A DNA stretch of 54,219 nt from a virus (Duplodnaviria; Caudoviricetes). The notes under the pieces were generated by a model. It was not told where the DNA came from, did no database searches, and was given only the letters and a program-made list of their open reading frames with translations. Every line of letters begins with the position of its first letter. The first letter of the stretch is position 1. Positions 1 through 42,104 of this stretch are shown piece by piece. Both the position numbers and the translations under genes were made by a program. The stretch lies in IMG/VR virus record IMGVR_UViG_3300045257_000227, positions 1 through 54,219 of that record. One strand, written 5' to 3'.

Positions 1-253
1 TCGTCGGCGCGCGTCTGCATCCGCCGTTTCAACTCGTCGAGAGACGATTTTAGCTGTGTTTCCGGGTCGGTGACCGGAATTTGGAACTTGCGCTTGGCCT
101 CGTTCACCAGGCGGATCAGGCGGGATTCGTCGGCGCGCGTCTGCATCCGCCGTTTCAACTCGTCGAGAGACGATTTTAGCTGTGTTTCCGGGTCGGTGAC
201 CGGAATTTGGAACTTGCGCTTGGCCTCGTTCACCAGGCGGATCAGGCGGGATT
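1..253. repeat. Two overlapping exact copies (1-127, 127-253) of the 127-bp terminal sequence; probable assembly artefact
   Basis: Exact repeat with period 126 and identical to 54093-54219; 127 is a common assembler k-mer size. Confidence 0.9.
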
Positions 254-3200
254 CCTCGGCGGACGGCGTGCGCCGTTCCAGCCCCGTTTTCAACGGCGGT
301 TGACCGGCCTGCATATCCTCCAATTTGGCAACCTGTTGCATCTGCCCCTTGAGGTCGCGCACTTCCTTGGAAATCTCGTCTTTGGAAAGACGTTTGAAAT
401 TGCCGTAGCCGCTGATGGCGTCCATCGCATCCCGCCGGGTGATGGTCGGGTCGATGTCCAGCAAGACGCCGTGAACCGCGTCAATCAGTTCGTCCCGGTC
501 GGCAATGCCGTCCTCGACGAACAGCCGGGCAAGCCGCTGTACGAGGGGCGCAATCGCGTCGAGTGTGCCGCCGGCCAGCTTGTCACCAATCTTGTTGCTC
601 AAGTCCTCCTGCCGTTCCTTCACGGTCTTGGGTGCCTGTTGCGCGGCTTTGATTTTGGGGGCCGTGTACTTGCCAGCCACTTGTTCATTGAGTTCAGTCC
701 GGCGCTGTTCAGCCGCCTTCCAGATTTGAGTCAGGTGCTTTTTGATGTCCTCTCCAAGCTCGTCCACCATCTGTTTTGCCCAATCCGAACCGACAATCCC
801 CTTGATGATTTTAGCCGCTCCGTAACGGGCGTAATCAATCAAGTCCTCTGGCGGCAGGATGGTCAAACTGGCGTAGGTTCGACCTTCCTTGCGACGGGCC
901 TTGATACGGGCCAAGGCGTCTGACGCCTCTTTATCCGCGACTTGGATGATGCGGTCGGACAGCTTCCGCACGTTCGGCGGGAGCGTGACCGTCGTTTTGA
1001 AGATGTCATCCAGCGTCTTTTTGGCCTCCAACTCGCTAATTCGCTGATTCGTCCGATTTACATATTCGTCATGTTCCTTTTGTAGCTTGTCAATGTCCTC
1101 GTGCAACTGGCGTACTTCCTCAATCTGATCATCGGTCAGGGGTTTGCCGCCGTTGGCCGCGCGTTTGCCGGTTTCCATCGCCGCCAACGAGTAATCTTCG
1201 CGTGCCATCATCTTCCGGGCGTTCAAACCGCGCCCCGTCTCGGTGCCGACACGCTTGTTCACTTCGTAAATCTCGTAAAGCTGGTCCGCTGCCGCCGCCA
1301 CGCGCCCGCGCAGTTCTGCCGCGTCCGCCAGCCGGTTCGGGAAGTCCTTGCCGTCCTCGTAGGCGTAGGCCAAGTCCCGAGTGAGCTTCCCGTAATCGTT
1401 TTGGAGTTCAATTTGACGGTGCAGGAGCAACGCATCCTCAAAATCGGTCACCGCGCGTGGATTGGCCGAAAGCTCGGCAACCAGTTCGTCCTGGATGGCG
1501 GGATTCTGGTCAACCGCGGCCATTGCCTCGTCCCACACGCGGCCAAAGCCCCGGCGAGCCTGTTGCATGGCCGGGGGCAGCCCGCGCAAGGCACGCTCGC
1601 GCTCAACCGTGGCGTTCTTGATGCCGGTCGCGCCCGTCCATCCCGGTTGCTCCTCCTCGGCACTTGGCGTCATGGCACCCATGCTCGGGCCAAGGTTCTT
1701 TTTACTCCGGGTCTTGTTGTTCGAGTCGGAAACGTTACTTTGCGCTGCTTCACCGGTTACTTCGGGCCGAAAAGGTGATTTGGTGATGTCCCGTATTGCG
1801 TCCGCTACCTTTTCCAGCTTGTTTTCTTCGATGGTGACTTCCATCCGGTTACCGACTTTGGTGAAATCACCGGTGAGCCGGACAAGTTTCGGGTCGAGGA
1901 AGATTGAACCGCCGGTACGCCGCGCCGCGCCGGTCTTGACCAAATAACCGCTGCCCGAACGGGATGGCGTGATACTGACGATACCCCCGGACGTGACAGA
2001 GTGCGGGTTGTAACGGTTGACGTGGTTCGTCAGGTAATGTTTTACGGCCGCACCGCTGGTCAAATCCAAGCGGGGGTCGCTGGCAAGGTTCTCCGGTCCC
2101 CAGTTCTTCGGCATGAGCAACCCGGTGATGGTTGAACCGTCATGCGACTGAAAACGTACCATCTTGCCGCGTCCGCCGGTCGCGGTGTAGCCGCGTATCG
2201 GGTTGCCGACGACAAAGTAACGGTCATACCGTGCGCCCTTGCGTCCGCCGGCCAAATCTTCGGGCTTGGCGTCACTGGGTTCGATGCTCCATTTCTCCGG
2301 GTTGAACATGCTGCCGGTCAAATGAGCGATACCGCCAGGAGCGTCTATCATGAAGGTGAACCGGAAAGCCGACGGCGCAAGCCGGTTGCTGTTCGGCGGG
2401 GTGAACTTCACCAGCATGGCGTCAAAGCTCTCGCCGGTTTCCTTGTCGGATAGGTTGACCACTTTGCCAGCCGTTCGGGTGATTTCGCCGACGAGGGACA
2501 TTGTTCTGTCCCGCCAGCGTTGCACCGCCTCGTCATGCGTGCGGATTGCATTCTCGGCTTTAACCTTTTCTATGTCCGTCTTGGCCTCGGCCAACTTCTG
2601 TTGCAAGTCCGTCGAACGCTGGTCTAGCCGTGCGTTGGCTTGGGTCGAAAAGTTATCGAACTCAGCCTGTAACTTCTCCGGGGTGCCGTGGTTCTTGGCT
2701 AGTTCTCTGGACATTTCCGCGCCGCTTGGGACATGCCGGTTGTCCTGCACGTTCCATTGTTGCAACCGGACGCTGGCCGTGAAGATGTTGCTCTCGTCGG
2801 TGCCCGGTGAAAGTTCCTCGTCGGTGCTTCGGATGCCGTCCCAATCGTCGTGGGTGACAATCTCCAAATCGTACTCGCCGGTGTTCTTCAACTGCTGGAT
2901 CAGTTCGCGGTAGGCCGGAATGATGTACTCGTAAGCCTCTTTCTGCCACGCATCGGGCATCCTGGCCATGCGCCCGGTAAATGTGCGGGCCAAGTCCTTT
3001 TTGACTTCCGGGCTCCCGTCCTGCTTGTGCTCAACCTGCAAATCCAGCATGTCCTGCAAGTCCTGCCGTTGGTCGAGGTAATCCGCCACAACCGCATCGC
3101 CGTACTTGTTCAAAAAGTCCTCGGATTCAATCTTGATGGCGTTGTCAGCTTCCGCCGTGGTGTTGGCGTTGAGCGATTTCATTTTGCGCGCGGCCATCGC

Positions 3201-6200
3201 CGCCGGACGCAGTTCCGCCTGCAACGGCAACACGAGATGCGAATACTTAGCGCCGTAGGGCTGGCCGGCCTCGTCCTTACCCTTCATCACCAAGCCGGTT
3301 CGGAAGATGCGCCCGAGCGTTTGGACGAAAGTATTGATGTCCGCCGCCGGCTGCGCGATGAGCATGTGCCGGGGTTTCTGGTCTTTGAACTTCTCGCTGG
3401 CGTGGGCGCTCAAGCCGGTCGAGCCTGACGCATTGAGCAACATCCCGTCGTAAGCGCCGCTGTTGAAACCATTGACCACCTTGTTTTTCTTGGCCGACGG
3501 GAAACGGGTGTAAGTGCCGATACCCTGCTCAAAGTCGGTGTAATTGATACCGCTTTGGCGTCCGGTCAATTCCACCATCTTGACGCCCGCCTTGTTCAAT
3601 TTCTGGATGATGTAATCAATCGGCGAGACGGGAAATTTGCTCTCGATGCCTTTGGCGATTTCTTCAATCTGGTGATATTGGCTTTCCAACACCGGGCCAA
3701 GGTTGGCCGGGTCCATCTGCCGGACAATGGTATCGCCGTTGGGTAGCTCCTCGGAAATACGGAGTGTTCGCGCCAGCGCATGAGCTAAAAGCTCATTCCA
3801 ACGGATTTGCAGCGTGTCACCGGCCTTCATGCCCCTGTCTTGGGCGTAATGGTCAAGAAAACTCTCCATCGTGTTCATCAGGGCGATGACAGGCTTTTCG
3901 CCGCGCTTGTGCGCCGCGATGGCTTCCTCGACAACTGCATCGGCCTTGGCTGCGAGCAACAGTTGACCTATTTGATTGTGGACGATGGACGCGAAATCGG
4001 TCATGGCAATCTGTCCCTCGGTCATCGCCGTTGATCCCTCCTGAGATTCCCGCACGCCTTTGCTGAACTCCACGAGTTGTTGCAGCACGTCCGTTACTTG
4101 GTCTATGTGGTCAACCAGTTCCGCCTCGTCCGCCACTTGCACCGGCAACATCTTGTAGGACACGCCGGTAAATTCGCGCTCGCGCCGCGTGTATTGGCCG
4201 GCCTTCGCCAGTGCTTCGGACACCGCCTGTTGCAACGCCACGCCGCCGCGCTTCATGGCGTCCACAATCTGCCCAAACGAGTCCGCCGCCTTTTTTAACG
4301 CCGTGCGGAAGTAAACCGGCATGTTCTCCGGGCGTTTGGCGTAGGTCGCCGACAGATAGGCCACGCCGCCGCCGCGCTCGGTTTTTGTGCCCGACGCATT
4401 GAGCAACCCAGGCACGTTGACAAACTCGATGTTCGACCCCGAACCGCGCTTCACCCTGCCGCCTTGAAAGAAAGCCGCCTGCATGGACGTTTCGGCATCG
4501 CCCGCCGCGTCGTGCGCCTCGTCCATCACGAGGACGACGGGATTGCTGTCCGTCAGCCGTTCCAGAAACAACTGCCGCGCGTTGCGCGTGTTGATTTGTG
4601 AGTAAGTGGCGAATATCGCGTTGTACCCCGTCTCGGTCAGCCCGTTTTGTAGAATGTTTGCAATGCTTTCGTCCTGCAATTTCTTCGACGGCGAGCGGTG
4701 AATAACGTTGCCTTCAGTGTCAACGATGTGCGCCTTGGTAGAGTCACCGAGGATGAACGGCTTGAGCGTAGTCGAAAGCTGTTGCGGCGTTTGTTCCAGC
4801 AAATCACCCATGTCCCCGTACATGTCGCTGAATAGCTTCGGGTCTTTCGTGAAGAAAACAGGTATGGCGCCGTTCTTCATGGCGTACCAGAGGACCGCCG
4901 CGGCCTGACGCCCTTTGCCGATGCCGGTTTGGTCGCCGATGATGGTCGCGCCGTCGTGCTTCATCTGGTCAATCGCCATTGCCGCGCCGTCCACCTGCTC
5001 GCCGGAAAGAACACGCTTCAATTGTTCAACGGGTAGCTCAAGCTCTTTGGCGAGAAAGTCGTCTAACGGGCCGACGCGCGTTTTCAGGTCGTCGAGGTAG
5101 GCATGAACACCGGGAGCGATGGATTTGGGGATGAGCGTGCCGAAAGCGGGTGCCGTGCTGCGCGGTTCATAGGCAACTTGATATTCGGTGCCTTTGACCA
5201 GTGGCGGTTCTTTTACGTCGGGCTCCGGTGCGGGTGCGGTTTTCTTTTCCTCCAAATAATGTTTGAGATACGGCTTGATGGCATCGCTGTAACTGTTGAG
5301 AAGGAACTGGGCGTATTCCTTGAGGGATTTACCGGCCTTTTGGAATTGCTTCCACGCCTCATCGAAATGGGGCTTTGCCTCGGCGTAGGTTTTCTCGTCG
5401 AAACCTGGGGTGAGTGCGCCAAGGCGTGTTTTGCTGCCAAACAGTTTGTTCAGTCCGGTCATCGCCTCGTCCACGCCCGCAACGCCGTGCTTGGCCGCTT
5501 CACGGATGATGTCCGTTGCGCCTTTTTTTGGGGCAACTTCAAATTCGGGCCGACGAGTTTCGGACTTTGCCGTGACAACACCTTCACGAGTCGGGATGAT
5601 TCGTACTGGTTCCGTGACCCTCACGTTGCCTTCAACGTATGACCTAACTCCGTTTTCATCCTCGTAAACATCTTGCCCTTCGGTATTTTGTCCAACGAGC
5701 TTGCGCTTTGAACGGGATTCTACGTTTTTTGTATTGGCCGCGCTCGCATCTTCAATCAGCGCGTCAATGTCATCCAACTCGGCAAGCTGTTTGTCGATCA
5801 GAGAAACCGGCTTAGAAACGATTCCAGACTCAGCGCCTTTGCCTCCTCCTGCGCCTCGTTCTCCGGTGCTGGCGGGAGCTGCACCGCCTCCGCCATCCCC
5901 GCTTTCCACTCCGCCAACTGGCTGTTTATCTCCGCCGGTTGCATTATCAGGGCGTTCGCCAGCCGCGGGCTTTGGAACTTGTCCGGCGGCAGGTTTTGCA
6001 GGTTCTCGAACGGCAGGTTGTTCTCCAACTGGCGGTCGGCTGACTCCTTTTCCTCCGGGCTTGCCTCCCCGATCAGGCGTCGGAGCAATTCCACTTGGAG
6101 GACGCGCAGCACTTCCGCTGACTTCGGCGGGTTCCCGCTCTGTTGGAGGACGCACAGGTACTCGGGGTGTTCCGCCGGCATCCACGGCTTTTCGTTGGGA

Positions 6201-8912
6201 TTCAATTTCATTGCGTATCCTTTCACTTTCGTTCCAGACTTCGCCCCAGGTGTTGAAGCGGGTCACTTGCTCCGGGCTGTACTCGCCGGGCTTCAAAGGT
6301 TCAGCGCGCCGGCCATTTACCACGAGAATTCGGACAGGGAACTTTGCCCCCTGATTGGCGTACAAATCGCCGTTCACTTCAAAATTGCCGACAACGTTGT
6401 AATGCGAGTACAGGTAGTTTTCAAATACCCGCTGTGCACCGCGTCCGGTCTTGGAAGAATGAAGGCCAGCACCGAGGATCATGTATCCGGCGCCGTCGTC
6501 CTTCATGGCGTCGAGGGCTTTGGCCGAAATCAGGTGTTCGAGGCGTTTGATACCGTAGCCGCCGATGTTTTGATTGTCGGAAGGACCGAAAGGCGGGTTC
6601 GTGTGGACGCGGGAGAACTGGCCTTTGGGTCGGAACTTGGTCGCGTCCTCGCCGGTCACGGTTTTCACCCCGTTTTTCTTCAATTCGGCAATGCGCTCTG
6701 GGTTTTTCTCGTTGGCCGCTGACTTGCCATGTTCGCCGCCAATCATCAAAGCGCCGTTACCCGCTGTCGGCTCGTAAATGTCCTGGCCTTCGCTGCCGAC
6801 GGCATGGTTCAGGGCGTAGGCGAGCGGGACCGGAGTCGAATATGCCTGGTCCTGCATACTCGTGGATGTGCGCCCGGAGAATCGAGGCTGATTCCTGTAA
6901 AGCTCCGTCAGGTGGTCAAATTTCTGTTGCGGGGTGATGTCGGGTTGTTTGGCAATGCGGTCGGCATGACGTACAAGCTCGGCCTCGACGGTTTCTTGCA
7001 TGGCCTTGGTCGTGACGCCCCGACGGTCGGCCATGTTCTTCATGAGCGCGGCTTTGGCGATGCCCGAGGCAGGGGACAGGATCAAATCGGATATTTCGGG
7101 GTCAAGTCCTTCCGGGGTTTTTGGAGGAGTGACCGGCGGTTTGGCCTTTGCTGGTTCTGGAATTGGGTCTTCTGGAAGTCCCATTTCCTTTTTCAATTGA
7201 TTGTCTTTTTTGAGCTTCTCTTGTTTGGCCTTTATTTCCTCATCAGTCATGTCCCTGACAGAAATTTCCACTTCGTTTTTTGAACCGTCCAAGATTTCAC
7301 CGTACGTTTTGACTCGGTACTCTGACGGCTGCGTAACGGTGTTTTGGCCGTTCACTGAAACCACTTTTGCAGCGTCACCTTCGTCGTAAGTATCCCCGAC
7401 ACGTTTCCCGTTCGCTGTTTGAGTCCAGTTCTTTACGGTGTTTCCCGACTTGGTGTTTCTCAGAGTAAATTTTGCGCCGCTTTCGTGGGTTTGTTCCTCG
7501 TCCGGTTTGATTTCGGTAGCAGGTTTTTCAACTTTCGGCGCTTCCTCGGAGATTATTGGAAATGGTGCCTTGAAATCAGGATTGCGCCGGAGCATTTCTT
7601 CCCCACCGCTGCCGGTTCCGGTCGCTGCTTCATATGCCTCTCGAAAGAACTGTGGCTTGGTAGCCAACTGCATCGCCGCGTTCATGTCACCAGATTCTAG
7701 CTTCTGCTTAAAAGCGGTGGATGCTGCTTGTTGATGGTCTTTCAACGCCTGTAATTCCTCAGGTGTCTTGATGGACAACCCGAGGCGGTAAGCCGCGTTC
7801 GTAAGTCCGCCTGTCTCGGCTCGGGTGAACTTGTAAAATTGGTCGCCATCCATCGCCAGAACGGATTGCATTTGTTTTACTGATTCCGGTAAATCCGCCT
7901 CCGCTTGGGTCGGCTTCGTTTCATCCGGTGCCGATTTCGTTCCACTTTCGGGGGCAACCGTTTCAGAAACAGGGGCAACCGTTTCAGGCGACTGCTCCGG
8001 CGGTCGAAATCCTCTCGGCGTTTGGTACACCCCTTCCGGCGGGGTCTGACGCGGTACTGTCTCGGTCCTGGCCGCCGGTTCGGAGTCCAAAAATTCACCG
8101 GCATCGACGTTTTTGGCGAGTTCCTTCGCCGCCGCGTCCAGCCGCTTTTCTTTCAGGACCGTTATCGGCGCTCGCTCATCTACCTTGTGCGCTCCCCCCA
8201 AAATACCCATCAGGACCGCATTGGCCGCGGCGTCCTCAATGGCCGTGTCCCGTTCTGCGCCGGGAGTCATCTGTGAAATCTGGTAAACCGACGGCGCCGA
8301 TATAATCGTGGCTACGCCGCCGGCGCCGCCCGCCCGGTCAATCAGTTCCAGTGCCTTGTCCGACGTGATGCCCGCCTTTTCCGCCACTTTCGCCGCCACT
8401 TTTCCAGCGAACTTTCCCGCATACGGCGCAATCATCGCCGTGGCCGCTTGCACGGGGTCAAACCCCTCTTTGTTGAAGCCAAACGACGCCGCGCCGACGA
8501 CCGGCAAGACGGCGGTTGCCGCCAACTGGGGAGCACTGGCTATTGTGCTGGCTCCTACGCCTGCCGCTGCACGCGGGATGAGCGGTAACGACTGGCGCGC
8601 TTCTTCCCAAGGCGACGTATCCAACAGGTTTACGTCCTCAAGTGCCTTTTTGGTTTCCGGCGGGAGATTAGCCTCGGCGGTAGATTTGATTTCCTGCTTG
8701 GCAAGGTCAAGATTGCCCGTTGAGAGCAATGTTCCCGCCTTTACCAAACCGGAAATAAGTTCGCCGCTGCGCGTGAAGGCGTCGCCGATTGTGGTAGTGA
8801 CCTTGTGTAACCCGTGAGGCTCGTTTGGGTCGTCAAAATCCGATTCGTCGAACTTCAAAGGCGCTGCGGCCTGTGGTTCAGCAAAGTCATCCTCTGTGAA
8901 TGTCAGCGGCAT
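1..8912 (-). CDS. Giant DarB-like polyvalent virion protein, 5' part (N6-adenine MTase + strawberry-notch SF2 helicase); continues across the junction into 52589-54092, ~3429 aa in total
   Basis: Manual translation from ATG 8912 (MPLTFTEDDF...). MTase motif I YEPTAGNGAL at ~6750-6776 and NPPF at 6588-6599. Walker A GDQTGIGKGR at ~4908-4937, DEAH at 4512-4523, then LSATYAK, GSTGLSAHAS and QTFGRIFRTG. Same frame as ORF 52589..54199 after circularisation. Omitted from the ORF track because it runs off the edge. Confidence 0.9.
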   Translation of the reverse strand, partial: MPLTFTEDDFAEPQAAAPLKFDESDFDDPNEPHGLHKVTTTIGDAFTRSGELISGLVKAGTLLSTGNLDLAKQEIKSTAEANLPPETKKALEDVNLLDTSPWEEARQSLPLIPRAAAGVGASTIASAPQLAATAVLPVVGAASFGFNKEGFDPVQAATAMIAPYAGKFAGKVAAKVAEKAGITSDKALELIDRAGGAGGVATIISAPSVYQISQMTPGAERDTAIEDAAANAVLMGILGGAHKVDERAPITVLKEKRLDAAAKELAKNVDAGEFLDSEPAARTETVPRQTPPEGVYQTPRGFRPPEQSPETVAPVSETVAPESGTKSAPDETKPTQAEADLPESVKQMQSVLAMDGDQFYKFTRAETGGLTNAAYRLGLSIKTPEELQALKDHQQAASTAFKQKLESGDMNAAMQLATKPQFFREAYEAATGTGSGGEEMLRRNPDFKAPFPIISEEAPKVEKPATEIKPDEEQTHESGAKFTLRNTKSGNTVKNWTQTANGKRVGDTYDEGDAAKVVSVNGQNTVTQPSEYRVKTYGEILDGSKNEVEISVRDMTDEEIKAKQEKLKKDNQLKKEMGLPEDPIPEPAKAKPPVTPPKTPEGLDPEISDLILSPASGIAKAALMKNMADRRGVTTKAMQETVEAELVRHADRIAKQPDITPQQKFDHLTELYRNQPRFSGRTSTSMQDQAYSTPVPLAYALNHAVGSEGQDIYEPTAGNGALMIGGEHGKSAANEKNPERIAELKKNGVKTVTGEDATKFRPKGQFSRVHTNPPFGPSDNQNIGGYGIKRLEHLISAKALDAMKDDGAGYMILGAGLHSSKTGRGAQRVFENYLYSHYNVVGNFEVNGDLYANQGAKFPVRILVVNGRRAEPLKPGEYSPEQVTRFNTWGEVWNESERIRNEIESQRKAVDAGGTPRVPVRPPTEREPAEVSGSAARPPSGIAPTPDRGGKPGGKGVSRPPVGEQPAVREPAKPAAGQVPKPAAGERPDNATGGDKQPVGGVESGDGGGGAAPASTGERGAGGGKGAESGIVSKPVSLIDKQLAELDDIDALIEDASAANTKNVESRSKRKLVGQNTEGQDVYEDENGVRSYVEGNVRVTEPVRIIPTREGVVTAKSETRRPEFEVAPKKGATDIIREAAKHGVAGVDEAMTGLNKLFGSKTRLGALTPGFDEKTYAEAKPHFDEAWKQFQKAGKSLKEYAQFLLNSYSDAIKPYLKHYLEEKKTAPAPEPDVKEPPLVKGTEYQVAYEPRSTAPAFGTLIPKSIAPGVHAYLDDLKTRVGPLDDFLAKELELPVEQLKRVLSGEQVDGAAMAIDQMKHDGATIIGDQTGIGKGRQAAAVLWYAMKNGAIPVFFTKDPKLFSDMYGDMGDLLEQTPQQLSTTLKPFILGDSTKAHIVDTEGNVIHRSPSKKLQDESIANILQNGLTETGYNAIFATYSQINTRNARQLFLERLTDSNPVVLVMDEAHDAAGDAETSMQAAFFQGGRVKRGSGSNIEFVNVPGLLNASGTKTERGGGVAYLSATYAKRPENMPVYFRTALKKAADSFGQIVDAMKRGGVALQQAVSEALAKAGQYTRREREFTGVSYKMLPVQVADEAELVDHIDQVTDVLQQLVEFSKGVRESQEGSTAMTEGQIAMTDFASIVHNQIGQLLLAAKADAVVEEAIAAHKRGEKPVIALMNTMESFLDHYAQDRGMKAGDTLQIRWNELLAHALARTLRISEELPNGDTIVRQMDPANLGPVLESQYHQIEEIAKGIESKFPVSPIDYIIQKLNKAGVKMVELTGRQSGINYTDFEQGIGTYTRFPSAKKNKVVNGFNSGAYDGMLLNASGSTGLSAHASEKFKDQKPRHMLIAQPAADINTFVQTLGRIFRTGLVMKGKDEAGQPYGAKYSHLVLPLQAELRPAAMAARKMKSLNANTTAEADNAIKIESEDFLNKYGDAVVADYLDQRQDLQDMLDLQVEHKQDGSPEVKKDLARTFTGRMARMPDAWQKEAYEYIIPAYRELIQQLKNTGEYDLEIVTHDDWDGIRSTDEELSPGTDESNIFTASVRLQQWNVQDNRHVPSGAEMSRELAKNHGTPEKLQAEFDNFSTQANARLDQRSTDLQQKLAEAKTDIEKVKAENAIRTHDEAVQRWRDRTMSLVGEITRTAGKVVNLSDKETGESFDAMLVKFTPPNSNRLAPSAFRFTFMIDAPGGIAHLTGSMFNPEKWSIEPSDAKPEDLAGGRKGARYDRYFVVGNPIRGYTATGGRGKMVRFQSHDGSTITGLLMPKNWGPENLASDPRLDLTSGAAVKHYLTNHVNRYNPHSVTSGGIVSITPSRSGSGYLVKTGAARRTGGSIFLDPKLVRLTGDFTKVGNRMEVTIEENKLEKVADAIRDITKSPFRPEVTGEAAQSNVSDSNNKTRSKKNLGPSMGAMTPSAEEEQPGWTGATGIKNATVERERALRGLPPAMQQARRGFGRVWDEAMAAVDQNPAIQDELVAELSANPRAVTDFEDALLLHRQIELQNDYGKLTRDLAYAYEDGKDFPNRLADAAELRGRVAAAADQLYEIYEVNKRVGTETGRGLNARKMMAREDYSLAAMETGKRAANGGKPLTDDQIEEVRQLHEDIDKLQKEHDEYVNRTNQRISELEAKKTLDDIFKTTVTLPPNVRKLSDRIIQVADKEASDALARIKARRKEGRTYASLTILPPEDLIDYARYGAAKIIKGIVGSDWAKQMVDELGEDIKKHLTQIWKAAEQRRTELNEQVAGKYTAPKIKAAQQAPKTVKERQEDLSNKIGDKLAGGTLDAIAPLVQRLARLFVEDGIADRDELIDAVHGVLLDIDPTITRRDAMDAISGYGNFKRLSKDEISKEVRDLKGQMQQVAKLEDMQAGQPPLKTGLERRTPSAEESRLIRLVNEAKRKFQIPVTDPETQLKSSLDELKRRMQTRADESRLIRLVNEAKRKFQIPVTDPETQLKSSLDELKRRMQTRAD
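5798..6211 (-). CDS. Overprinted hypothetical protein (137 aa) nested in an alternative frame of the giant gene
   Basis: GAAAGGA RBS 6 nt before ATG 6211. Acidic, helical-looking sequence, while the host frame here is a G/P/A/R-rich linker. Confidence 0.6.
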   Translation of the reverse strand: MKLNPNEKPWMPAEHPEYLCVLQQSGNPPKSAEVLRVLQVELLRRLIGEASPEEKESADRQLENNLPFENLQNLPPDKFQSPRLANALIMQPAEINSQLAEWKAGMAEAVQLPPAPENEAQEEAKALSLESFLSRFL

Positions 8913-20005: not shown

Positions 20006-20371
20006 CTATTCGATGATGAGAATTTTTCTCACGTTACCCGAACACTTGTCGGGATGGCCGGAATATCCCCACCAATGGAGATACCACTCATCGTGTTTAA
20101 CTGGGTTCATTGGATGCCCTGACCATTTTTGCATCTTCCACATTTTCCCTTCGTACACCCCCGTCGGTTGAGACTGGGTATAATCCGCGAGCTCGTTGAA
20201 ATCGGCACGAGACATAAGGGCATGTGCGTCGTCGATCAGAATATTTTCTGTCTTTGGTTGCTTCCAATACTTGCCCATTGGATGAACGATGGGTGGAATT
20301 ATATTCGTTTCGATATGCCTCGGTACTGGCTGAGACAATGCTTTTTCAACAGCCGATTGAAGCGTGTTCAT
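20006..20371 (-). CDS. Hypothetical phage protein
   Basis: 121 aa, Trp-rich (HPMGKYWKQP; PTGVYEGKMWK). Confidence 0.75.
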   Translation of the reverse strand: MNTLQSAVEKALSQPVPRHIETNIIPPIVHPMGKYWKQPKTENILIDDAHALMSRADFNELADYTQSQPTGVYEGKMWKMQKWSGHPMNPVKHDEWYLHWWGYSGHPDKCSGNVRKILIIE

Positions 20372-20380
20372 GCGTTTTTA

Positions 20381-20520
20381 AAATCCCGGTTCACCTGGCG
20401 ATGAATGGTGGACGGCGCAAAGACCCCCAGAAGAAGGGTGAACACGCCGTCGGGCATCGCCAGATGAACGGGAATTTCGTTTTTGTCTCGGTTCATAATG
20501 AGCTCCACCACGGAGCCGAT
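20381..20520 (-). ncRNA. Structured leader RNA element A (hairpin plus long rod), containing a 42-codon leader ORF (20368-20496)
   Basis: Hairpin at 20502-20516; rod at 20381-20477 whose mismatches become G-U only on the minus strand; 7-nt loop-loop complementarity. Confidence 0.6.
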
Positions 20521-20525
20521 GAGGG

Positions 20526-20564
20526 ACTATAGGCTTGACCACACTCATCGTGCAAGTGCAATCT
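20526..20564. promoter_or_regulatory. Overlapping divergent promoters
   Basis: Minus strand: TTGCAC-N18-TATAGT (20555 to 20526). Plus strand: TTGACC-N18-CAATCT (20535-20564). Confidence 0.6.
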
Positions 20565-20581
20565 GCACCAGTCCTGATTTT

Positions 20582-20773
20582 ATGACCCACCCCACCCAAG
20601 TCACCGTCAACGGCCAGGAGTTCCTCCAATGGTGCGAGCGCGCCAAGACCGGAGAAGTCCACATCCCGACCGTCGTTGTCACCGACAATGGACGCTACCG
20701 CCTCACCCTCCAATGGCGCAAGACCCCGCCGCAAATTCAGAAAGACTTGTTCGCCATTGACACGCAATCGTAA
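20582..20773 (+). CDS. Small hypothetical protein (63 aa)
   Basis: ATG just downstream of the plus-strand promoter. Confidence 0.55.
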   Translation: MTHPTQVTVNGQEFLQWCERAKTGEVHIPTVVVTDNGRYRLTLQWRKTPPQIQKDLFAIDTQS

Positions 20774-20786
20774 CGTGTGGCAGTAT
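20757..20786 (+). promoter_or_regulatory. Promoter for the helicase operon
   Basis: TTGACA-N18-CAGTAT with TGG upstream of the -10. Confidence 0.55.
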
Positions 20787-20792
20787 CGGTCA

Positions 20793-20940
20793 TCAAGTCG
20801 CTGTGAGAGGTGACATAAATCGCAAGTATGTAAACAACGAAATTTCAAGGCTGATGCTTTGCCGACCTTTCCAACCGATGCCTCCGCGTGTCGTCTTGCG
20901 TCTCTCACCGGCGAAGCGTCAGCCTTGAGGATTTGATTGT
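20793..20940 (+). ncRNA. Structured leader RNA element B (hairpin plus 20-bp stem)
   Basis: Hairpin at 20797-20814; stem 20845-20864/20909-20928 fully paired with two G-U; GTGAGAG/CTCTCAC complementarity. Confidence 0.65.
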
Positions 20941-20944
20941 TTTT

Positions 20945-21112
20945 ATGACCGCAGACGAAGCCACAACACATGTCGAACAGGTGAATGCCGCGCGCAGGGA
21001 GTTTATCAGATTTTTTACCCGTGATGATCTTCTCAAGTGGCCTTTGGAACTTCGTATCAAAGCTGAAAACTTGGCTTGGCGCATGTTTCTGGCCGGAAAG
21101 GGGCTCGTTTGA
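20945..21112 (+). CDS. Small hypothetical protein (55 aa)
   Basis: Stop overlaps the TTG start of the helicase (TTGA). Confidence 0.65.
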   Translation: MTADEATTHVEQVNAARREFIRFFTRDDLLKWPLELRIKAENLAWRMFLAGKGLV

Positions 21113-22581
21113 ATTCCAGAAAAACCACCCCCGACCGGCTACCGCCACACCACGACGAGGCGGAGCAGGCCGTCATCGGCTGTCTGATCGAAGACCCGAA
21201 AAACGTCATGCCGGCCATTTACCGACGGCAACCGGATTGTTTTTACGAGCAACGCTGTCGTCTGGTGTTCAACGCCGCCTGCACCCTGTACTCTGAGGAC
21301 ACCCCCATTGATTTCATCACCCTGATGAAACTTCTTAAGGACACCCACCCGGAAGTTGAGGTCGAGTGGCACGATTTTTTCATGGCCTGCCTTAACTTCG
21401 TCCGCTCCACCGCAAATCTGAGCACCTATCTCGAAATCCTCGACGAGAAGTTTGAGCAACGCCGGATCATCCAAGCCTGCACCGAAACAGTCGCCAGTTT
21501 TTTTGAGAACGGCGTCCCTCACGACACCCTGAAATACAACGCCCAGTCCGAACTCGCCGCCGCCTTTGGCGCCGCCAGTTCCAAAGACCTGCCCGAAATC
21601 ACCGATGCCGTTGACTTCGAAGCCAAAGATCTGCCCGAACCGGCCATCCTCATCGAAGGTATGCTCCATAAAGGTTCGAAACTCGTGTTCGGAGGCTCTT
21701 CGAAGTCCTTCAAAACTTGGTGCCTCTTCGACCTCGCCATGTCCATTAGCACCGGCACCGACTGGCTCGGCCGTCATACCACCATCGGAAAGGTCCTGTA
21801 CGTCAATTTTGAAATCGAGGAGTTCGCCTGGCAGGTCCGCCTCCGAAAGGTCGCCCAAGCCAAACAACAAGCTCCCGCCCTTGGTATGCTCCACCTCTGG
21901 AACCTCCGCGGCCATGCCGCCGATTTCCGCTCCCTTATTCCCAAGATCATCGCGCGCGCCAAAAATGAAGGCTATTCCCTGATCATCCTCGACCCCCTCT
22001 ACAAGCTCTACGGCAACACCGACGAAAACTCCGCCGGTGACATCGGCCTCCTCCTCAACGAAATCGAGCGCCTAGCCAAGACCGCCAACGCCGCTGTCGC
22101 TTTCGGCGCCCACTTCGCCAAAGGCAACGCCTCATCCAAAGACGCCATCGACCGCATCTCCGGCTCCGGCGTCTTCGCCCGCGACCCCGATTCCATCCTC
22201 ATTTTCACCCAACACGAGGAACCCGACTGTTTCGCCCTCCAACCCATCCTCAGAAACTTCCCGCCCATCTCCCCCTTCGTCGTCCGTTGGAACTTCCCTC
22301 TCATGGTCCCTACCACCGACCTCGACCCCGATAAACTCAAACAAGCCCGTGGCAAAAAAAAGGAACATGACCCCAAATCCCTCCTCGCATTAATCGTTGA
22401 TAACGACATAGATAACCCAATTTCTATCACCGATTGGGCGCTTGGCGGATTTGTTCCCAGAAAAACACTCCAAGGTTACTTGGCGGATATGCACCGAAAA
22501 GGCTTCATCAAAACCCTCGGCGAAGGCACTACCTCAAGAAAGTACATCACCAACGAAGGCAAGGCTTTCGTCAATTCTTAA
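21109..22581 (+). CDS. Replication helicase: DnaB N-terminal domain + AAA_25/RepA-like ATPase + C-terminal wHTH
   Basis: RLPPHHDEAEQAVIGCLI (DnaB_N), GGSSKSFKT Walker A, VLYVNFE, LIILDPLY Walker B, HFAKG, SGSGVFARDPD. Confidence 0.88.
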   Translation: MNSRKTTPDRLPPHHDEAEQAVIGCLIEDPKNVMPAIYRRQPDCFYEQRCRLVFNAACTLYSEDTPIDFITLMKLLKDTHPEVEVEWHDFFMACLNFVRSTANLSTYLEILDEKFEQRRIIQACTETVASFFENGVPHDTLKYNAQSELAAAFGAASSKDLPEITDAVDFEAKDLPEPAILIEGMLHKGSKLVFGGSSKSFKTWCLFDLAMSISTGTDWLGRHTTIGKVLYVNFEIEEFAWQVRLRKVAQAKQQAPALGMLHLWNLRGHAADFRSLIPKIIARAKNEGYSLIILDPLYKLYGNTDENSAGDIGLLLNEIERLAKTANAAVAFGAHFAKGNASSKDAIDRISGSGVFARDPDSILIFTQHEEPDCFALQPILRNFPPISPFVVRWNFPLMVPTTDLDPDKLKQARGKKKEHDPKSLLALIVDNDIDNPISITDWALGGFVPRKTLQGYLADMHRKGFIKTLGEGTTSRKYITNEGKAFVNS

Positions 22582-22720
22582 TCCATTGGCGGATTTGCTA
22601 TTCCGCCAAGCCGGTTTAATTCCGCCAAGGCGCTCCGCCGCGGCTTGGCGGATATCCTTTAGGTATCCGCCAACCGCCAAGCGCCCCTCATCCGCCTAAA
22701 AAATCAAATCCGCCAAGCAG
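22441..22720. repeat. Cluster of about ten TCCGCCAA/TTGGCGGA motifs in both orientations; candidate replication origin iterons
   Basis: Copies near 22442, 22480, 22587, 22602, 22622, 22645, 22666, 22674, 22691 (variant) and 22709. Confidence 0.7.
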
Positions 22721-23523: not shown

Positions 23524-23687
23524 CGCGTGGAACTTGCGGGAGGAGCGCGGGAAAGTCAAGGGATTGAGCATAACAAATTGGTATGGTCGGGGGTGAAGAT
23601 TGTTGTTGCGTTGCGTGCAACCTGTGGTAATCTGTAATCAAGGTTGCTCGTGGTGGGCGGCCAAAACAGCCAACTAAACTAATAACT

Positions 23688-23942
23688 ATGGCAAAAGAAA
23701 ATCGCAAAAACCTCCGTGAAAAAATCGTGGCCGCGCTCGATGAAATGACCAGCGAAGCGAGCAACCGCGAGTCTATTGTGACCATCCGCGGGCATGGAGA
23801 TTGCTCGCCGCCTCCTGTATGCTGGCGGCAGCCAATGGACTGGATGTGGCCGGGTCCAAACCCAACAGCGGCAGAAATTGAACACGCCGTGAGCGAAGGG
23901 CCGTTGAGATTGAATCCTCGCGTGATGGACTCGCCGCGTTGA
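23688..23942 (+). CDS. Hypothetical protein
   Basis: 84-aa ORF downstream of a TTGCGT-N16-TAATCT promoter-like sequence. Confidence 0.6.
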   Translation: MAKENRKNLREKIVAALDEMTSEASNRESIVTIRGHGDCSPPPVCWRQPMDWMWPGPNPTAAEIEHAVSEGPLRLNPRVMDSPR

Positions 23943-23985
23943 ATTATTAGTTGACTCCCGCGCAACCAAGTTGATAACCAGCAAC

Positions 23986-24192
23986 ATGAGTGAAGCCTTA
24001 GAACGGGTAGGACGCAAAATCGCCTTTGAACGCGTCACGCGAAATGTGAGCCAAGACGAGTTAGCCTTGCGAATAGGTTGCAATAAAAGCACCGTCTCCC
24101 GAATCGAAAGCGCCAAGCAAAGCCTGAGCGTCGAAGTCCTGTTGCAGATCGGGGAAGCGTTGGGAGTGCAGCCGCATCAATTTCTACTATGA
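23986..24192 (+). CDS. XRE-family helix-turn-helix regulator
   Basis: SQDELALRIGCNKSTVSRIESAK...LLQIGEALGV. Confidence 0.9.
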   Translation: MSEALERVGRKIAFERVTRNVSQDELALRIGCNKSTVSRIESAKQSLSVEVLLQIGEALGVQPHQFLL

Positions 24193-40559: not shown

Positions 40560-42104
40560 TTATTTCAGGTAGTCAAAGTTGCCAAGGGTGTTGCCCGCGT
40601 TGTGAACAAAATACAGCATCCATTTGGTCGCAAACCTTGCGTTCGAGGTCGCCATGATTCCGTTGATGCCCGGCACCTTGCTCGTTTCCGACTGGGACAG
40701 ATGAACGCCCCGAGCAAACGGGGTGTACCAGATTTTAAAACCGGCCTGACGCACCTTCATGCAAATGTCATCGTCCTCACAGTAGAATTTGTAACCCTCG
40801 TCGTACCCGCCAATCTGCTCAAACACAGAACGGCGAAACATGAAGGACGCACCGTTCACGTTCTCCATCTCACAAGGATAGCACACAGTCTCGGTGGTTT
40901 GGGTGCCAATGCCGTCAATGTGAATGAAGCCTGCCGAACCGTCTGGATTTCGAGTCTTGCCAGAGTGGTAAATCCTACCGTTCGGAAAACTGAGAAAGTG
41001 TCCGACGCACCCCACGTCATGCGCCATGACCGCCTTCATCTTGTCCACCGCGTCAGGCGCAAGGTAAACGTCGTCATTCAACACCAGCAGGTAATCGCCC
41101 GTCGCGTGCTTCGCCCCAAAGTTCACGTTGCGGCCAAACCCGATGCCGGACTCAGACGAGACGACATGCCGGATTTTCGTATTACCGATAACCCCTTCGG
41201 GCAGCACGGCCGCGGCTTCCCGTGTCACAATAATCTCGTCCACTTGCGGCAGCACGGCCAACAGGCACTTGTTGAGCATGTCCGCCGTTGGCTTGTAGAT
41301 CGGAATGACACAGGAAACCGATACGGCCGCTTTCGGCGGGTCAATCACGGTCGGCGGGTTGATGGCCCTTTTCACGGCCTGAATGATTTCTACCTTCATC
41401 CGCTCGTAATCCGCATACTTGATATATAACGCAAATTTCTTGTGCGGCGCGCTCCCACGCCAGCCGTCCGCCGCCAGAACAATCGTCGGCACCGGGGACG
41501 CCTTCGACAGATGCACATGCGCCGTCTCAATCGTCACCAGGCACGCCGCGCGGTCGTACAACCCAAGCAGGTCGTATATCCGATGCGCTTTCACTTGCGA
41601 CAGCCGGACAAATTCATGGTGCGGAAACTCCGCCTGTATCAGCCGCGCCAGTTCCTCTTTTGGCAGGAACGGCGAGCTTTGAGAGTGGTCCCCGAACAGG
41701 ATGTAGGGTTTCGCCTTCGTGTGTATCCCAAGGTCTTTCTCCCGGTCGGCGTTTCTTTTATCGAACACGAGCGGCCAGTCCTCGAAATGTTCCACGGCGC
41801 CCGCGCGGCGCCACTGGTCGAGTTGAAAACTCGGCGTCAATTGTTGCACCGGCATGTTCCCATGCGTCTGTAAAGCGATGACCTGACTGAACCGTTTTTT
41901 GGCAAACAGGATGGCACCGGCCAAGTCCGAACTGTCCCCGTTCCAAATCACCGGCTCGACATAGCTGACGCCTTCGAGAACTGAGGCATACTCCGGGCTG
42001 ATGACCAGCTTTGGGCGTTGTCCCGTCTCTTTGAAGTCGTGGTATAGGATCGGGAGGATGCTCAGAACGTCACCCGCCTTGGAAAGCTGGATGTAGCACT
42101 TCAT
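40560..42104 (-). CDS. Fused GT9-like (GT-B) + GT2 glycosyltransferase
   Basis: LSKAGDVLSILP and LVTIETAHVHLS (GT9-like); CVIPIY, GFGRNVNFG, LLVLNDD, GGYDEGY..YCEDDDIC (GT2). Confidence 0.88.
   Translation of the reverse strand: MKCYIQLSKAGDVLSILPILYHDFKETGQRPKLVISPEYASVLEGVSYVEPVIWNGDSSDLAGAILFAKKRFSQVIALQTHGNMPVQQLTPSFQLDQWRRAGAVEHFEDWPLVFDKRNADREKDLGIHTKAKPYILFGDHSQSSPFLPKEELARLIQAEFPHHEFVRLSQVKAHRIYDLLGLYDRAACLVTIETAHVHLSKASPVPTIVLAADGWRGSAPHKKFALYIKYADYERMKVEIIQAVKRAINPPTVIDPPKAAVSVSCVIPIYKPTADMLNKCLLAVLPQVDEIIVTREAAAVLPEGVIGNTKIRHVVSSESGIGFGRNVNFGAKHATGDYLLVLNDDVYLAPDAVDKMKAVMAHDVGCVGHFLSFPNGRIYHSGKTRNPDGSAGFIHIDGIGTQTTETVCYPCEMENVNGASFMFRRSVFEQIGGYDEGYKFYCEDDDICMKVRQAGFKIWYTPFARGVHLSQSETSKVPGINGIMATSNARFATKWMLYFVHNAGNTLGNFDYLK

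What the first reader, a model, noticed from the sequence alone, without database searches (positions are those of the whole stretch)
20368..20960. Two divergent leaders share one RNA-switch architecture (loop-loop pairing, leader ATG, AACGAAATT) controlling the helicase and leftward operons
Seen: each of two promoters (minus 20555-20526; plus 20757-20786) is followed by the same parts in the same order, with different sequences. These are a small hairpin, a TATG, the motif AACGAAATT opening a long stem that closes with GGATTT, and then the first gene. In each element the first hairpin is complementary to the 3' side of the long stem's internal loop. In A (minus) TGGTGGA 20510-20504 pairs with TCCACCA 20412-20406. 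In B (plus) GTGAGAG 20803-20809 pairs with CTCTCAC 20902-20908, and CGCAAG 20821-20826 pairs with CTTGCG 20895-20900. Stem mismatches become G-U only on the transcribed strand. A's leader ORF (42 codons) is ATGA-coupled to gene 20371, while B's is ATG-TAA. The B loop also matches CGCAGACGA (20950-20958) at the start of the next ORF. Known analogues: P4 CI (seqA/B/C), P1 C4, and the leader-peptide/pseudoknot control of IncI/IncB rep. Inference: a reusable cis-regulatory or antisense RNA module with sequence-specific 'addresses', possibly an RNA-based immunity or replication switch.
Basis: partly seen in the sequence, partly recalled or inferred. Interest (0 to 1): 0.78.

Follow-up and report, generated by a model that had tools for sequence, protein, structure and literature searches.

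The report
Phage leader RNA with kissing hairpins
Two mirror-image RNA leaders in this phage, and at least a dozen look-alikes in other phages, fold into a small hairpin whose loop pairs with the inside of a long hairpin just before replication genes, which points to an undescribed RNA switch for phage early genes.

Summary
A (minus, 20380-20478) and B (plus, 20832-20942) are the two strongest inverted repeats of this complete 54-kb phage. Alone they fold with z -8.9 and -7.0, and better on the gene-sense strand. No Rfam family matches.

The key result is comparative. I found 12 further elements of the same build in other viral and metagenome contigs, mostly ahead of replication genes. In every one, the small 5' hairpin is complementary (6-9 nt) to the stretch just 5' of the long stem's 3' strand, and the sequence differs each time. 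Cognate runs average 7.5 nt against 4.6 for non-cognate pairs, and 0 of 20000 permutations reach that. Among 81 strong hairpins, 13 show this pairing against 1-3 in three control geometries. Three homologous pairs carry compensatory changes.

A U-run at the 3' foot is typical (11 of 13, against 3 of 66). A leader ORF running through the hairpin is frequent (6 of 11).

Most likely this is a cis-acting leader switch that works like the ColIb-P9 Rep-leader pseudoknot, possibly also as an attenuator. The mechanism is inferred. Trans-acting "addresses" or an immunity role are not shown.

The parts
20526..20555 (-). putative promoter of leader A (TTGCAC, 18 nt, TATAGT)
   Evidence: 8 of 12 hexamer matches; the -10 ends 15 nt before the kiss partner. 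Not listed by the consensus scan. Function inferred.
20501..20517 (-). hairpin 1 of A (6-bp stem, 5-nt loop). Its 3' loop and stem nucleotides 20504-20510 are the 5' kiss partner.
   Evidence: MFE folds; complementarity
20368..20496 (-). 42-codon leader ORF of A. It runs through the long hairpin, and its stop overlaps the next gene's start (ATGA).
   Evidence: called as a gene in the source record, a singleton cluster
20380..20478 (-). long hairpin A: lower stem of 8+15 bp, asymmetric internal loop, upper hairpin, 3' foot ending in UUUU
   Evidence: -55.8 kcal/mol, z -8.9; top inverted repeat of the window; 7 G-U pairs
20406..20412 (-). 3' kiss partner of A (TCCACCA), in and next to the 3' side of the internal loop
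   Evidence: P 0.009 against shuffles of the 5' region
20006..20371 (-). first gene of the leftward operon, 121 aa, function unknown (phrog_24427)
20582..20773 (+). 63-aa ORF lying between the two leaders; no relatives found
20757..20786 (+). putative promoter of leader B (TTGACA, 18 nt, CAGTAT)
   Evidence: 9 of 12 hexamer matches; not listed; function inferred
20797..20814 (+). hairpin 1 of B (6-bp stem, loop GTGAGA); the 5' kiss partner is 20803-20809
20828..20833 (+). ATG-TAA start-stop in the spacer of B, at the position where other members have the leader ORF start
20803..20928 (+). 41-codon GTG-initiated ORF through hairpin B; its stop ends 17 nt before the ORF55 start. Whether it is used is unknown.
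20832..20942 (+). long hairpin B: 22-bp uninterrupted helix plus a 10-bp outer extension, asymmetric internal loop, upper hairpin, U-rich 3' foot
   Evidence: -49.7 kcal/mol, z -7.0; longest helix in the window; second inverted repeat
20902..20908 (+). 3' kiss partner of B (CTCTCAC), the last 7 nt of the internal loop before the 3' strand of the lower stem
   Evidence: P 0.026
20945..21112 (+). 55-aa first ORF of the rightward operon; its TGA overlaps the TTG start of the helicase gene
21109..22581 (+). replicative helicase (DnaB_N + AAA_25)

Best explanation
A and B are two copies of a cis-acting 5' leader RNA. The same build recurs in other, mainly Verrucomicrobiota-associated, phages, usually ahead of replication genes.

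Each transcript seems to start just upstream of a small hairpin (H1). An A-rich spacer of about 15-40 nt follows; in about half the members it holds the start of a leader ORF. Next comes a hairpin of about 86-111 nt. Its 3' strand ends in a U-run and lies within 0-11 nt of the first gene's start codon in 12 of the 13 members where the start could be placed.

The H1 loop pairs with the 6-9 nt immediately 5' of the lower stem's 3' strand, forming a pseudoknot or kiss.

Proposed mechanism (inferred). The long hairpin keeps the first gene off by occluding its initiation region, and probably also by acting as a leader terminator. A ribosome translating the leader ORF and stopping at the gene's start, or co-transcriptional folding, opens the hairpin. 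The H1 kiss then holds it open long enough for expression. This is how the ColIb-P9 Rep leader pseudoknot works.

Shown: the structures, their strand specificity, their recurrence, the covarying kiss, the U-run, and the gene context. Inferred: promoter use, the direction of the kiss's effect, and translational versus transcriptional action.
For: Structure and strand:
- establish the two hairpins in the window.
- Across five elements, 33 of 183 pairs are G-U with no A-C mismatch, and all 5 fold 7.7-15.4 kcal/mol better on the sense strand.
- The 12 other hairpins have z-scores of -5.0 to -8.4.

Recurrence:
- L210 was found by a helix scan of helicase relatives.
- L284 and L292 (= L294) were found by a foot pattern; they were the only 3 of 15 hits that fold into a long hairpin.
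- L005, L403, L378, L358, L367, L346, L003, L360 and L366 were found by a structure scan.
- L003's copy sits in the same place as B, directly before a small ORF and the helicase gene.

Kiss:
- Position-restricted shuffle P values are 0.009, 0.026, 0.028, 0.005 and 0.075.
- For the three elements chosen without looking at the kiss, my own arithmetic (Fisher's method) gives about 9e-4.
- 13 of 81 strong hairpins have a run of at least 7 nt in this geometry, against 2, 3 and 1 of 81 in three control geometries.
- In the 13x13 matrix the cognate mean is 7.46 and the non-cognate mean 4.56 (n = 156); 0 of 20000 permutations reach the observed value.
- Compensatory double changes occur in L378/L358 (2), L360/L366 (2) and L005/L403 (1).

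Other family features:
- Leader ATG ORFs run through the hairpin and end between 11 nt before and 10 nt after the gene's ATG in 6 of 11 elements examined. They use two different frames over the conserved foot, so the foot is not conserved as codons.
- A U-run of at least 4 lies at the 3' foot in 11 of 13 members, against 3 of 66 other strong hairpins.
- Downstream genes are a replication initiator, a primase, a primosomal-like protein (with a UUG start), a ParB-like protein and helicases.

The ColIb-P9 mechanism is taken from passages of section 7 of PMC4705826.
Against: - There are no expression data.
- No close relative of this phage is available, so A and B themselves have no orthologues for covariation. 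The support comes from paralogous or analogous elements.
- In the MFE folds both kiss partners are already unpaired, so the kiss could lock the closed hairpin instead of holding it open. In ColIb-P9 the distal partner is sequestered and lies next to the SD. Here it is 28-36 nt upstream of the start in the five elements measured.
- B and 4 other members have no ATG leader ORF through the hairpin, so leader translation cannot be the general trigger.
- The start codons themselves are mostly not paired in the MFE.
- No antisense RNA gene is evident.
- Four members (L403, L378, L358, L367) were picked from a list sorted by kiss length, which inflates the matrix statistic. The 81-hairpin test does not have this bias, but it includes duplicates (L220 = L005, L418 = L417, L343 = L284) and one doubtful GC-rich hit (L417).
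- Without the quality filter there is no enrichment: 14 of 323 against 16, 11 and 9 in the controls.
Confidence: 0.45

Rival explanations
1. The long hairpin is mainly an intrinsic transcription terminator (a leader attenuator) placed between an early promoter and the replication genes. This is my recollection of how lambda places tR1 ahead of O and P. The H1 kiss, ribosomes on the leader ORF, or an unknown factor would set the rate of read-through. Effects on translation would be secondary.
For: A U-run of at least 4 lies at the 3' foot in 11 of 13 members, against 3 of 66 other strong hairpins. The two exceptions carry a U5 run inside the 3' strand. A GC-rich lower stem is preceded by an A-rich 5' flank. 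The element lies directly after promoter-like hexamers in 9 of 14 elements. 5 of 11 members lack a leader ORF.
Against: A's U-run is only 4 U followed by 5 A. The stems are far longer than usual terminators, and the tool's terminator scan did not list them; its loop limit excludes them. In 5 elements the leader ORF ends at or up to 10 nt past the gene's ATG, and such placement is not needed for attenuation. Start codons 0-11 nt after the stem fit control of translation.
Confidence: 0.3
2. The hairpins are RNase III processing or stability signals, like those in lambda and T7 early transcripts. Cleavage of the 23-32-bp stem would detach the 5' part and free or stabilise the downstream mRNA.
For: The lower stems (20-33 positions) meet the length that, as I recall, double-strand-specific cleavage needs. 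Passages of PMC5371410 state that RNase III opens occluded ribosome sites in adhE and lambda cIII and cuts lambda, T7 and T3 RNAs.
Against: This does not explain the covarying H1 kiss, the U-run or the leader ORFs. Cleavage cannot be tested here and the host is unknown.
Confidence: 0.1
3. The elements, or RNAs processed from them, act in trans as antisense or immunity RNAs with sequence-specific addresses.
For: The kiss sequences are specific to each element. Two elements with different kiss sequences coexist in one phage. A promoter-like site on the antisense strand of A lies at 20357-20384 (9 of 12).
Against: Both partners of every kiss lie on the same transcript, about 90-110 nt apart. No Rfam antisense family matches. 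Promoter-like sites in the region are at chance level: 2 found against 1.9 expected. I did not look for extra copies of the partners elsewhere.
Confidence: 0.07
4. The hairpins work as single-stranded DNA: priming or initiation signals on opposite strands near the replication genes. From memory, the paired ssi sites of RSF1010-type origins are the model.
For: A and B lie on opposite strands, share a foot motif, and sit next to a RepA/DnaB-type helicase gene. G-T pairs would also be tolerated in DNA.
Against: In all 14 elements the favoured strand is the sense strand of the next gene, and in 12 of the 13 with a placed start the hairpin ends 0-11 nt from it. Leader ORFs and promoter-like sites fit RNA. 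The likely origin is the repeat cluster at 22441-22717, 1.5-2 kb away.
Confidence: 0.05

Closest known systems
Rep-leader pseudoknot control of IncI-alpha ColIb-P9 (repZ) and related IncB, IncK and IncL/M plasmids
   Same: Both have a 5' stem-loop whose loop pairs over about 100 nt with a sequence near the start of a replication gene. Both have a stable hairpin at the initiation region. Both have an upstream leader ORF whose stop lies at the gene's start (A, L005, L210, L284, L292). Weak start codons occur in some members (UUG in L378 and L358). The plasmid mechanism is taken from passages of PMC4705826 section 7 and PMC8053102.
   Different: There is no sequence relationship. The kiss is 6-9 nt instead of 4. 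Its distal partner sits in an exposed internal loop 28-36 nt before the start, not sequestered next to the SD. No antisense Inc-like RNA is evident. 5 of 11 members lack the leader ORF. The long hairpin ends in a U-run. The setting is phages, not plasmids.
HK022 putL and putR antitermination RNAs
   Same: Two related structured RNAs are encoded just downstream of the two divergent early promoters of one phage and act in cis (passages of PMC9378689).
   Different: put RNAs are about 70 nt, with two stem-loops and a triplex. They share sequence and bind the RNA polymerase zinc-binding domain. The elements here are about 150 nt, are pseudoknotted, end in a U-run and abut a start codon.
Leader terminators and attenuators ahead of replication genes (lambda tR1 with N; countertranscript-driven attenuation in pT181; the lambda case is recalled, the pT181 paper seen only as a title in the reference list)
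   Same: A strong hairpin plus a U-run sits between a promoter and replication genes.
   Different: The hairpin is much longer. A conserved kiss to a 5' hairpin is present. No nut-like or countertranscript partner was identified.
RNase III sites in phage early RNAs (lambda N leader and cIII, T7 and T3)
   Same: Long imperfect hairpins with asymmetric internal loops in early leaders, which can unmask ribosome sites (passages of PMC5371410).
   Different: Those sites are not known to need a 5' hairpin kiss. Cleavage is untested here.
P4 CI and P1/P7 C4 immunity RNAs (recalled from memory)
   Same: Complementary sequence blocks within one phage leader transcript control early genes.
   Different: No match in Rfam searches of the region at E up to 10. 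There is no evidence of a processed trans-acting RNA.

Membership tests
ColIb-P9 / I-complex Rep leader pseudoknot control | [quoted passage not shown] | tested here: inconclusive
   The 3' strand of the long hairpin ends 0-11 nt before the start codon in 12 of the 13 members where a start could be placed. In the MFE the start codon itself is mostly unpaired. B's outer extension reaches to 2 nt before the ATG.
ColIb-P9 / I-complex Rep leader pseudoknot control | An upstream leader ORF whose termination at the gene's start triggers opening | tested here: inconclusive
   Met for A (42 codons, ATGA overlap) and for L005, L210, L284, L292 and L346. Not met for B (ATG-TAA only; a GTG ORF stops 17 nt upstream) or for L367, L403, L378 and L358. 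That is 6 of 11 examined.
ColIb-P9 / I-complex Rep leader pseudoknot control | Long-range pairing between the loop of a 5' stem-loop and a sequence upstream of the gene's start | tested here: met
   6-9-nt complementarity at a fixed structural position in 14 elements, with covariation. The partner lies in an internal loop rather than next to the SD.
ColIb-P9 / I-complex Rep leader pseudoknot control | An antisense RNA complementary to the 5' stem-loop competes with the pseudoknot | tested here: inconclusive
   There is only one weak promoter-like site on the antisense strand of A (20357-20384, 9 of 12) and none for B. Sites in the region are at chance level. No RNA data.
ColIb-P9 / I-complex Rep leader pseudoknot control | The controlled gene is a replication gene | tested here: met
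   B, L003, L210, L292, L378, L358, L403 and L284 precede helicase, primase, initiator, primosomal-like or ParB-like genes. A precedes genes of unknown function.
HK022 put RNA | About 70 nt, two stem-loops, sequence similarity among put RNAs, binding to the RNA polymerase beta-prime zinc-binding domain | tested here: not met
   The size (about 150 nt) and fold differ. Polymerase binding cannot be tested with these tools.
Intrinsic terminator / attenuator | A GC-rich stem immediately followed by a U-tract | tested here: inconclusive
   A U-run of at least 4 at the 3' foot in 11 of 13 members, against 3 of 66 other hairpins. A has only 4 U. The consensus scan did not list A or B because its loop limit excludes them.
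Any Rfam family (from memory, Rfam includes a P1 C4-type antisense RNA family) | A covariance-model score at or above the gathering threshold | tested here: not met
   0 matches in the whole window at gathering score. 0 matches in 20200-21200 at E up to 10. No match on any element in 11 loci that hold other members; L403 was not scanned.
RNase III substrate | About two turns of near-continuous double-stranded RNA; cleavage by the enzyme | not testable with these tools
   Stem length is met: 23 bp in A and 22+10 bp in B. Cleavage is untested.

The most novel reading that the evidence does not exclude
These leaders may be a widespread, undescribed class of phage RNA switch. In it, a 5'-terminal hairpin loop kisses the internal loop of a terminator-like long hairpin, and this decides whether the replication (and here also the leftward) operon is expressed.

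Because the kiss sequence is private to each element, leader RNA, or a processed piece of it, from a resident or co-infecting phage could titrate the cognate loop in trans. That would give sequence-addressed, RNA-based immunity or replication control, comparable to plasmid incompatibility RNAs.
Probability: 0.15. Interest if true: 0.9.

Novelty: new variant of a known kind. Interest (0 to 1): 0.72.

Why it matters
If confirmed, this adds a structured cis-regulatory RNA family for phage early and replication genes, from phages whose relatives' proteins are named as Verrucomicrobiota. I did not check whether gene control has been studied in such phages.

It would show that the leader-ORF plus pseudoknot logic known from I-complex plasmids has a counterpart in phages. 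It comes with a built-in, easily tested prediction: disrupting and then compensating mutations of a 7-nt kiss.

Two copies with different kiss sequences on divergent operons of one genome suggest coordinate but separately addressable control.

The 14 seed elements are enough to build a covariance model for database-wide annotation.

Tried and rejected
Looking for relatives and expression data:
- Sequencing runs: 1 DNA run, probably the source, and no RNA holder listed.
- Close relatives: none by blastn in the phage collection and none from single-protein scans of viral contigs. Isolated phages carrying the 121-aa or helicase homologues are too distant.

Motif scans that gave only chance hits:
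- The A+B foot pattern in viral contigs: 119+ hits, 121 matches folded, and none besides A and B forms a long hairpin.
- A stricter B-type pattern in genome contigs: 5 hits, 0 real.
- A looser pattern in viral contigs: 41 loci, nothing new beyond L284, L292 and L294.
- A pattern for the L378 subfamily: 5 hits, only L378's own contig is real.

Models and alignments:
- The single-sequence model R1 (from A) finds B at 8.1 bits, E 5.6.
- R2 (from B) finds L210 at 49.7 bits and L292 at 22.7 bits, but not A or L284 at E up to 1. It finds no second copy in the contigs of L284, L292 and L294.
- MAFFT alignments of the elements were not in structural register. I therefore built no joint model and did not use the count of structure pairs.

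Scans that did not discriminate:
- Raw MFE window scans are dominated by GC-rich coding sequence.
- The kiss test without a quality filter shows no enrichment.
- L002, a helicase relative, has no such leader.

Literature:
- Papers PMC1170848, PMC139621 and PMC93579 are not held.
- The listings of two searches for a described phage element of this kind showed none. This is a weak negative; supplements were not opened.
Full report
**Setting.** The window is a complete viral record of 54219 bp with direct terminal repeats. The finding lies where the leftward and rightward gene blocks diverge.
- To the left, on the minus strand, are a 121-aa gene (20006-20371, phrog_24427, function unknown) and three more genes.
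- To the right are a 55-aa ORF (20945-21112) and a DnaB_N + AAA_25 helicase gene. The helicase's TTG start at 21109 overlaps the ORF's TGA.
- A 63-aa ORF with no relatives (20582-20773) lies between the two leaders.
- The named relatives of the helicase come from Limisphaerales and Verrucomicrobiae assemblies: 2 of the 2 taxon-bearing names among 120 listed.

**Checking the observation.**
- Each leader folds into a small hairpin followed by a long one.
- The 163-nt A leader has an MFE of -67.9 kcal/mol (z -5.65). The 174-nt B leader has -65.5 (z -5.41). The opposite strands give -63.0 (z -3.1) and -49.7 (z -1.4).
- The long hairpins alone score z -8.9 and -7.0.
- They are the first and second of the 19 inverted repeats with arms within 120 nt in the whole genome. 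B's 22-bp helix is the longest uninterrupted helix on either strand.
- AACGAAATT occurs exactly twice, at the two 5' feet. One-mismatch variants are at chance level: 17 against 19.8 expected.
- Rfam gives nothing for the window at gathering score, and nothing for 20200-21200 at E up to 10.
- The claimed promoters are consensus matches only and were not listed by the promoter scan. That scan found 2 other sites against 1.9 expected by chance.
- A 7-nt complement between the 5' region and the long hairpin is, taken alone, not rare: 18% and 15% of shuffles reach it.
- A covariance model built from A alone finds B only at 8.1 bits.
- Within this phage alone, then, the hairpins and the shared foot are solid, but the loop-loop pairing is only suggestive.

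**Relatives.** No close relative of the phage is available. The best fetchable helicase relatives are about 50% identical. The motif-only scans returned chance hits.

A scan for long helices in 160 loci around helicase relatives found L210, a metagenome contig. Ahead of its primase-helicase operon it has:
- a small hairpin;
- a 25-nt spacer between the kiss partner and the foot;
- the foot CGAAAGTTCAA opening a 26-bp stem;
- a U5 tail, with the ATG 6 nt later.

Its hairpin loop GTGATAA is exactly complementary to TTATCAC, the 7 nt just before the 3' strand of the stem. This is the same structural position as in A and B.

A pattern built on the B/L210 foot then gave 15 viral loci. Three of them (L284, and L292 = L294) fold into the same long hairpin. 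Each again has an upstream hairpin complementary to that position: 8 nt in L284 and 9 nt in L292. These three elements were chosen without reference to the kiss. Their position-restricted shuffle P values are 0.028, 0.005 and 0.075, which combine to about 9e-4 by my own arithmetic.

**A wider family.**
- Relatives of the L284 helicase are named mostly as Verrucomicrobiota: 4 of 5 taxon-bearing names.
- In 80 viral loci around such helicases, and on re-examining the earlier loci, a structure-based scan found further members with different feet: L367, L403, L378, L358, L346 and L005 (= L220). L003, L360 and L366 have 6-nt kisses.
- L003 is one of the two closest helicase relatives. Its element lies directly before a small ORF and the helicase gene, which is B's position, and its foot is of the same type.
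- All 12 non-window hairpins have z-scores of -5.0 to -8.4, with 0 of 200 shuffles as stable.
- None matches Rfam. 11 loci holding members were scanned. L403 was not.

**Tests of the kiss.**
1. Among all 81 strong hairpins in the scanned DNA (lower stem of at least 20 positions, MFE -38 or lower), 13 have a Watson-Crick run of at least 7 between the 65 nt upstream and the 13-nt window ending at the first nt of the lower stem's 3' strand. Three control geometries give 2, 3 and 1. The 13 include two duplicate pairs (L005/L220, L417/L418), L343 (= L284) and one doubtful hit. Without the quality filter there is no enrichment: 14 of 323 against 16, 11 and 9.
2. In a 13x13 matrix, cognate pairs average 7.46 nt and the 156 non-cognate pairs 4.56. 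No permutation out of 20000 reaches the observed mean. Four members were picked from a list sorted by kiss length, so this figure is somewhat inflated.
3. Three homologous pairs of elements differ in the kiss by compensatory double changes: two in L378/L358, two in L360/L366 and one in L005/L403. I saw no disruptive change.
4. L005 extends the pairing to 23 nt at 83% complementarity.

**Other family features.**
- Strand: in five elements, 33 of 183 pairs are G-U and no 1x1 mismatch is A-C. All five fold 7.7-15.4 kcal/mol better on the sense strand.
- U-run: a run of at least 4 U lies at the 3' foot in 11 of 13 members, against 3 of 66 other strong hairpins. The two exceptions have a U5 run inside the 3' strand.
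- Start codon: it follows the stem by 0-11 nt in 12 of the 13 members where it could be placed and by 35 nt in L403. L360's start is unresolved.
- Leader ORF: an ATG ORF of 35-44 codons starts in the spacer and reads through the whole hairpin in 6 of 11 elements examined. It ends as ATGA in A and L005, 7-10 nt past the ATG in L210, L284 and L292, and 11 nt before it in L346. L003, L360 and L366 were not examined for this.
- Reading frame: these ORFs cross the conserved foot in two different frames, so the foot is conserved as RNA or DNA, not as codons.
- B: it has only ATG-TAA at the equivalent spot, plus a GTG ORF that stops 17 nt before its gene.
- Promoters: promoter-like hexamers (at least 8 of 12) end 11-30 nt before the kiss partner in 9 of 14 elements (no null model was run).
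- Downstream genes: a replication initiator (L292), a primase (L210), a primosomal-like protein with a UUG start (L378, L358), a ParB-like protein (L403), and helicase operons (B, L003, L284).

**Interpretation.** The best-supported reading is a cis-acting leader RNA that gates the first gene of an early, usually replication, operon.

The nearest known mechanism is the ColIb-P9 Rep leader. There, a leader ORF terminating at the rep start exposes a sequence that pairs with the loop of a 5' stem-loop, and the resulting pseudoknot keeps the initiation region open (passages of PMC4705826 section 7; also PMC8053102).

The phage elements share the 5' hairpin, the long-range pairing, the inhibitory hairpin, the coupled leader ORF in about half the members, and the replication-gene context. 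They differ in several ways:
- the distal partner is exposed in an internal loop 28-36 nt before the start;
- the kiss is longer;
- no antisense RNA is evident;
- the hairpin ends in a U-run, which makes a terminator or attenuator function a serious alternative or an added layer.

The direction of the kiss's effect (holding the hairpin open or locking it shut) is not determined. RNase III processing, single-stranded DNA signals and trans-acting immunity RNAs are weaker alternatives.

**Verdict.** This appears to be an undescribed RNA family that works like a known kind of control. That rests on Rfam searches and on the listings of two literature searches, and paper supplements were not available.

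Noticed in passing
window 22441-22717: Seven of the nine copies of CCGCCAAG in the window (2.9 expected by chance) cluster in both orientations over the 3' end of the helicase gene and the 135 bp after it. That stretch folds with z -5.2 and -4.2. L003 has the same motif in inverted repeats right after its helicase gene, and several other relatives have repeat clusters at that spot. This is probably the replication origin or a helicase-loading site.
   Followed up: partly
window 41207-41329 (-): A 123-nt long hairpin (-65.1 kcal/mol, z -6.9) lies inside a 560-aa ORF. It has no upstream kiss partner by my scan and remains unexplained.
   Followed up: no
window 20582-20773 (+): A 63-aa ORF sits between the two leaders. 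It was called as a gene in the source record, and no relative turned up in the protein collection. It holds two internal direct repeats spaced 78-84 bp, and its start context resembles that of the 55-aa ORF (TGATTTTATGACC against TGTTTTTATGACC). Its stop lies inside the putative B promoter. It may be a small regulator.
   Followed up: partly
window 23571-24192: A second divergent region lies between a 149-aa minus-strand gene and an XRE-type HTH gene (23971-24192). It is a more conventional candidate for a repressor-type switch than the hairpin region.
   Followed up: no
L210 2835-2890: A perfect 26-bp palindrome lies about 40 nt after the helicase stop in the contig that carries the third element. 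Only weak sub-threshold Rfam miRNA-model hits fall on it.
   Followed up: no
L005 1826-1954 (= L220): Two interleaved inverted repeats (23 nt at 83% and 27 nt at 81% complementarity) give an extended pseudoknot version of the element. Its 37-codon leader ORF ends in an ATGA overlap with the next gene.
   Followed up: partly
hairpin-1 loops of L378, L366, L367, L284, L403, L005: Many kiss loops begin with UUGG or UUUGG, and L378's loop is UUGGCGAC. The target loop of ColIb-P9 is described by a paper title as carrying a 5'-UUGGCG-3' motif (reference lists seen). This may be a shared loop geometry for fast RNA-RNA pairing, or it may be coincidence.
   Followed up: no
window 20357-20384 (+) and 20577-20604 (-): The consensus scan listed two promoter-like sites (9 of 12 each). 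One would drive an antisense transcript across element A. The other would give a longer A leader. Both are at chance level for the region.
   Followed up: no
window 3-8912 (-): A very large ORF (2970 aa, running off the window's start) has only a weak methyltransferase-like PHROG match. The 121-aa gene's relatives among isolated phages are in Achromobacter, Stenotrophomonas, Pseudomonas and other phages.
   Followed up: no
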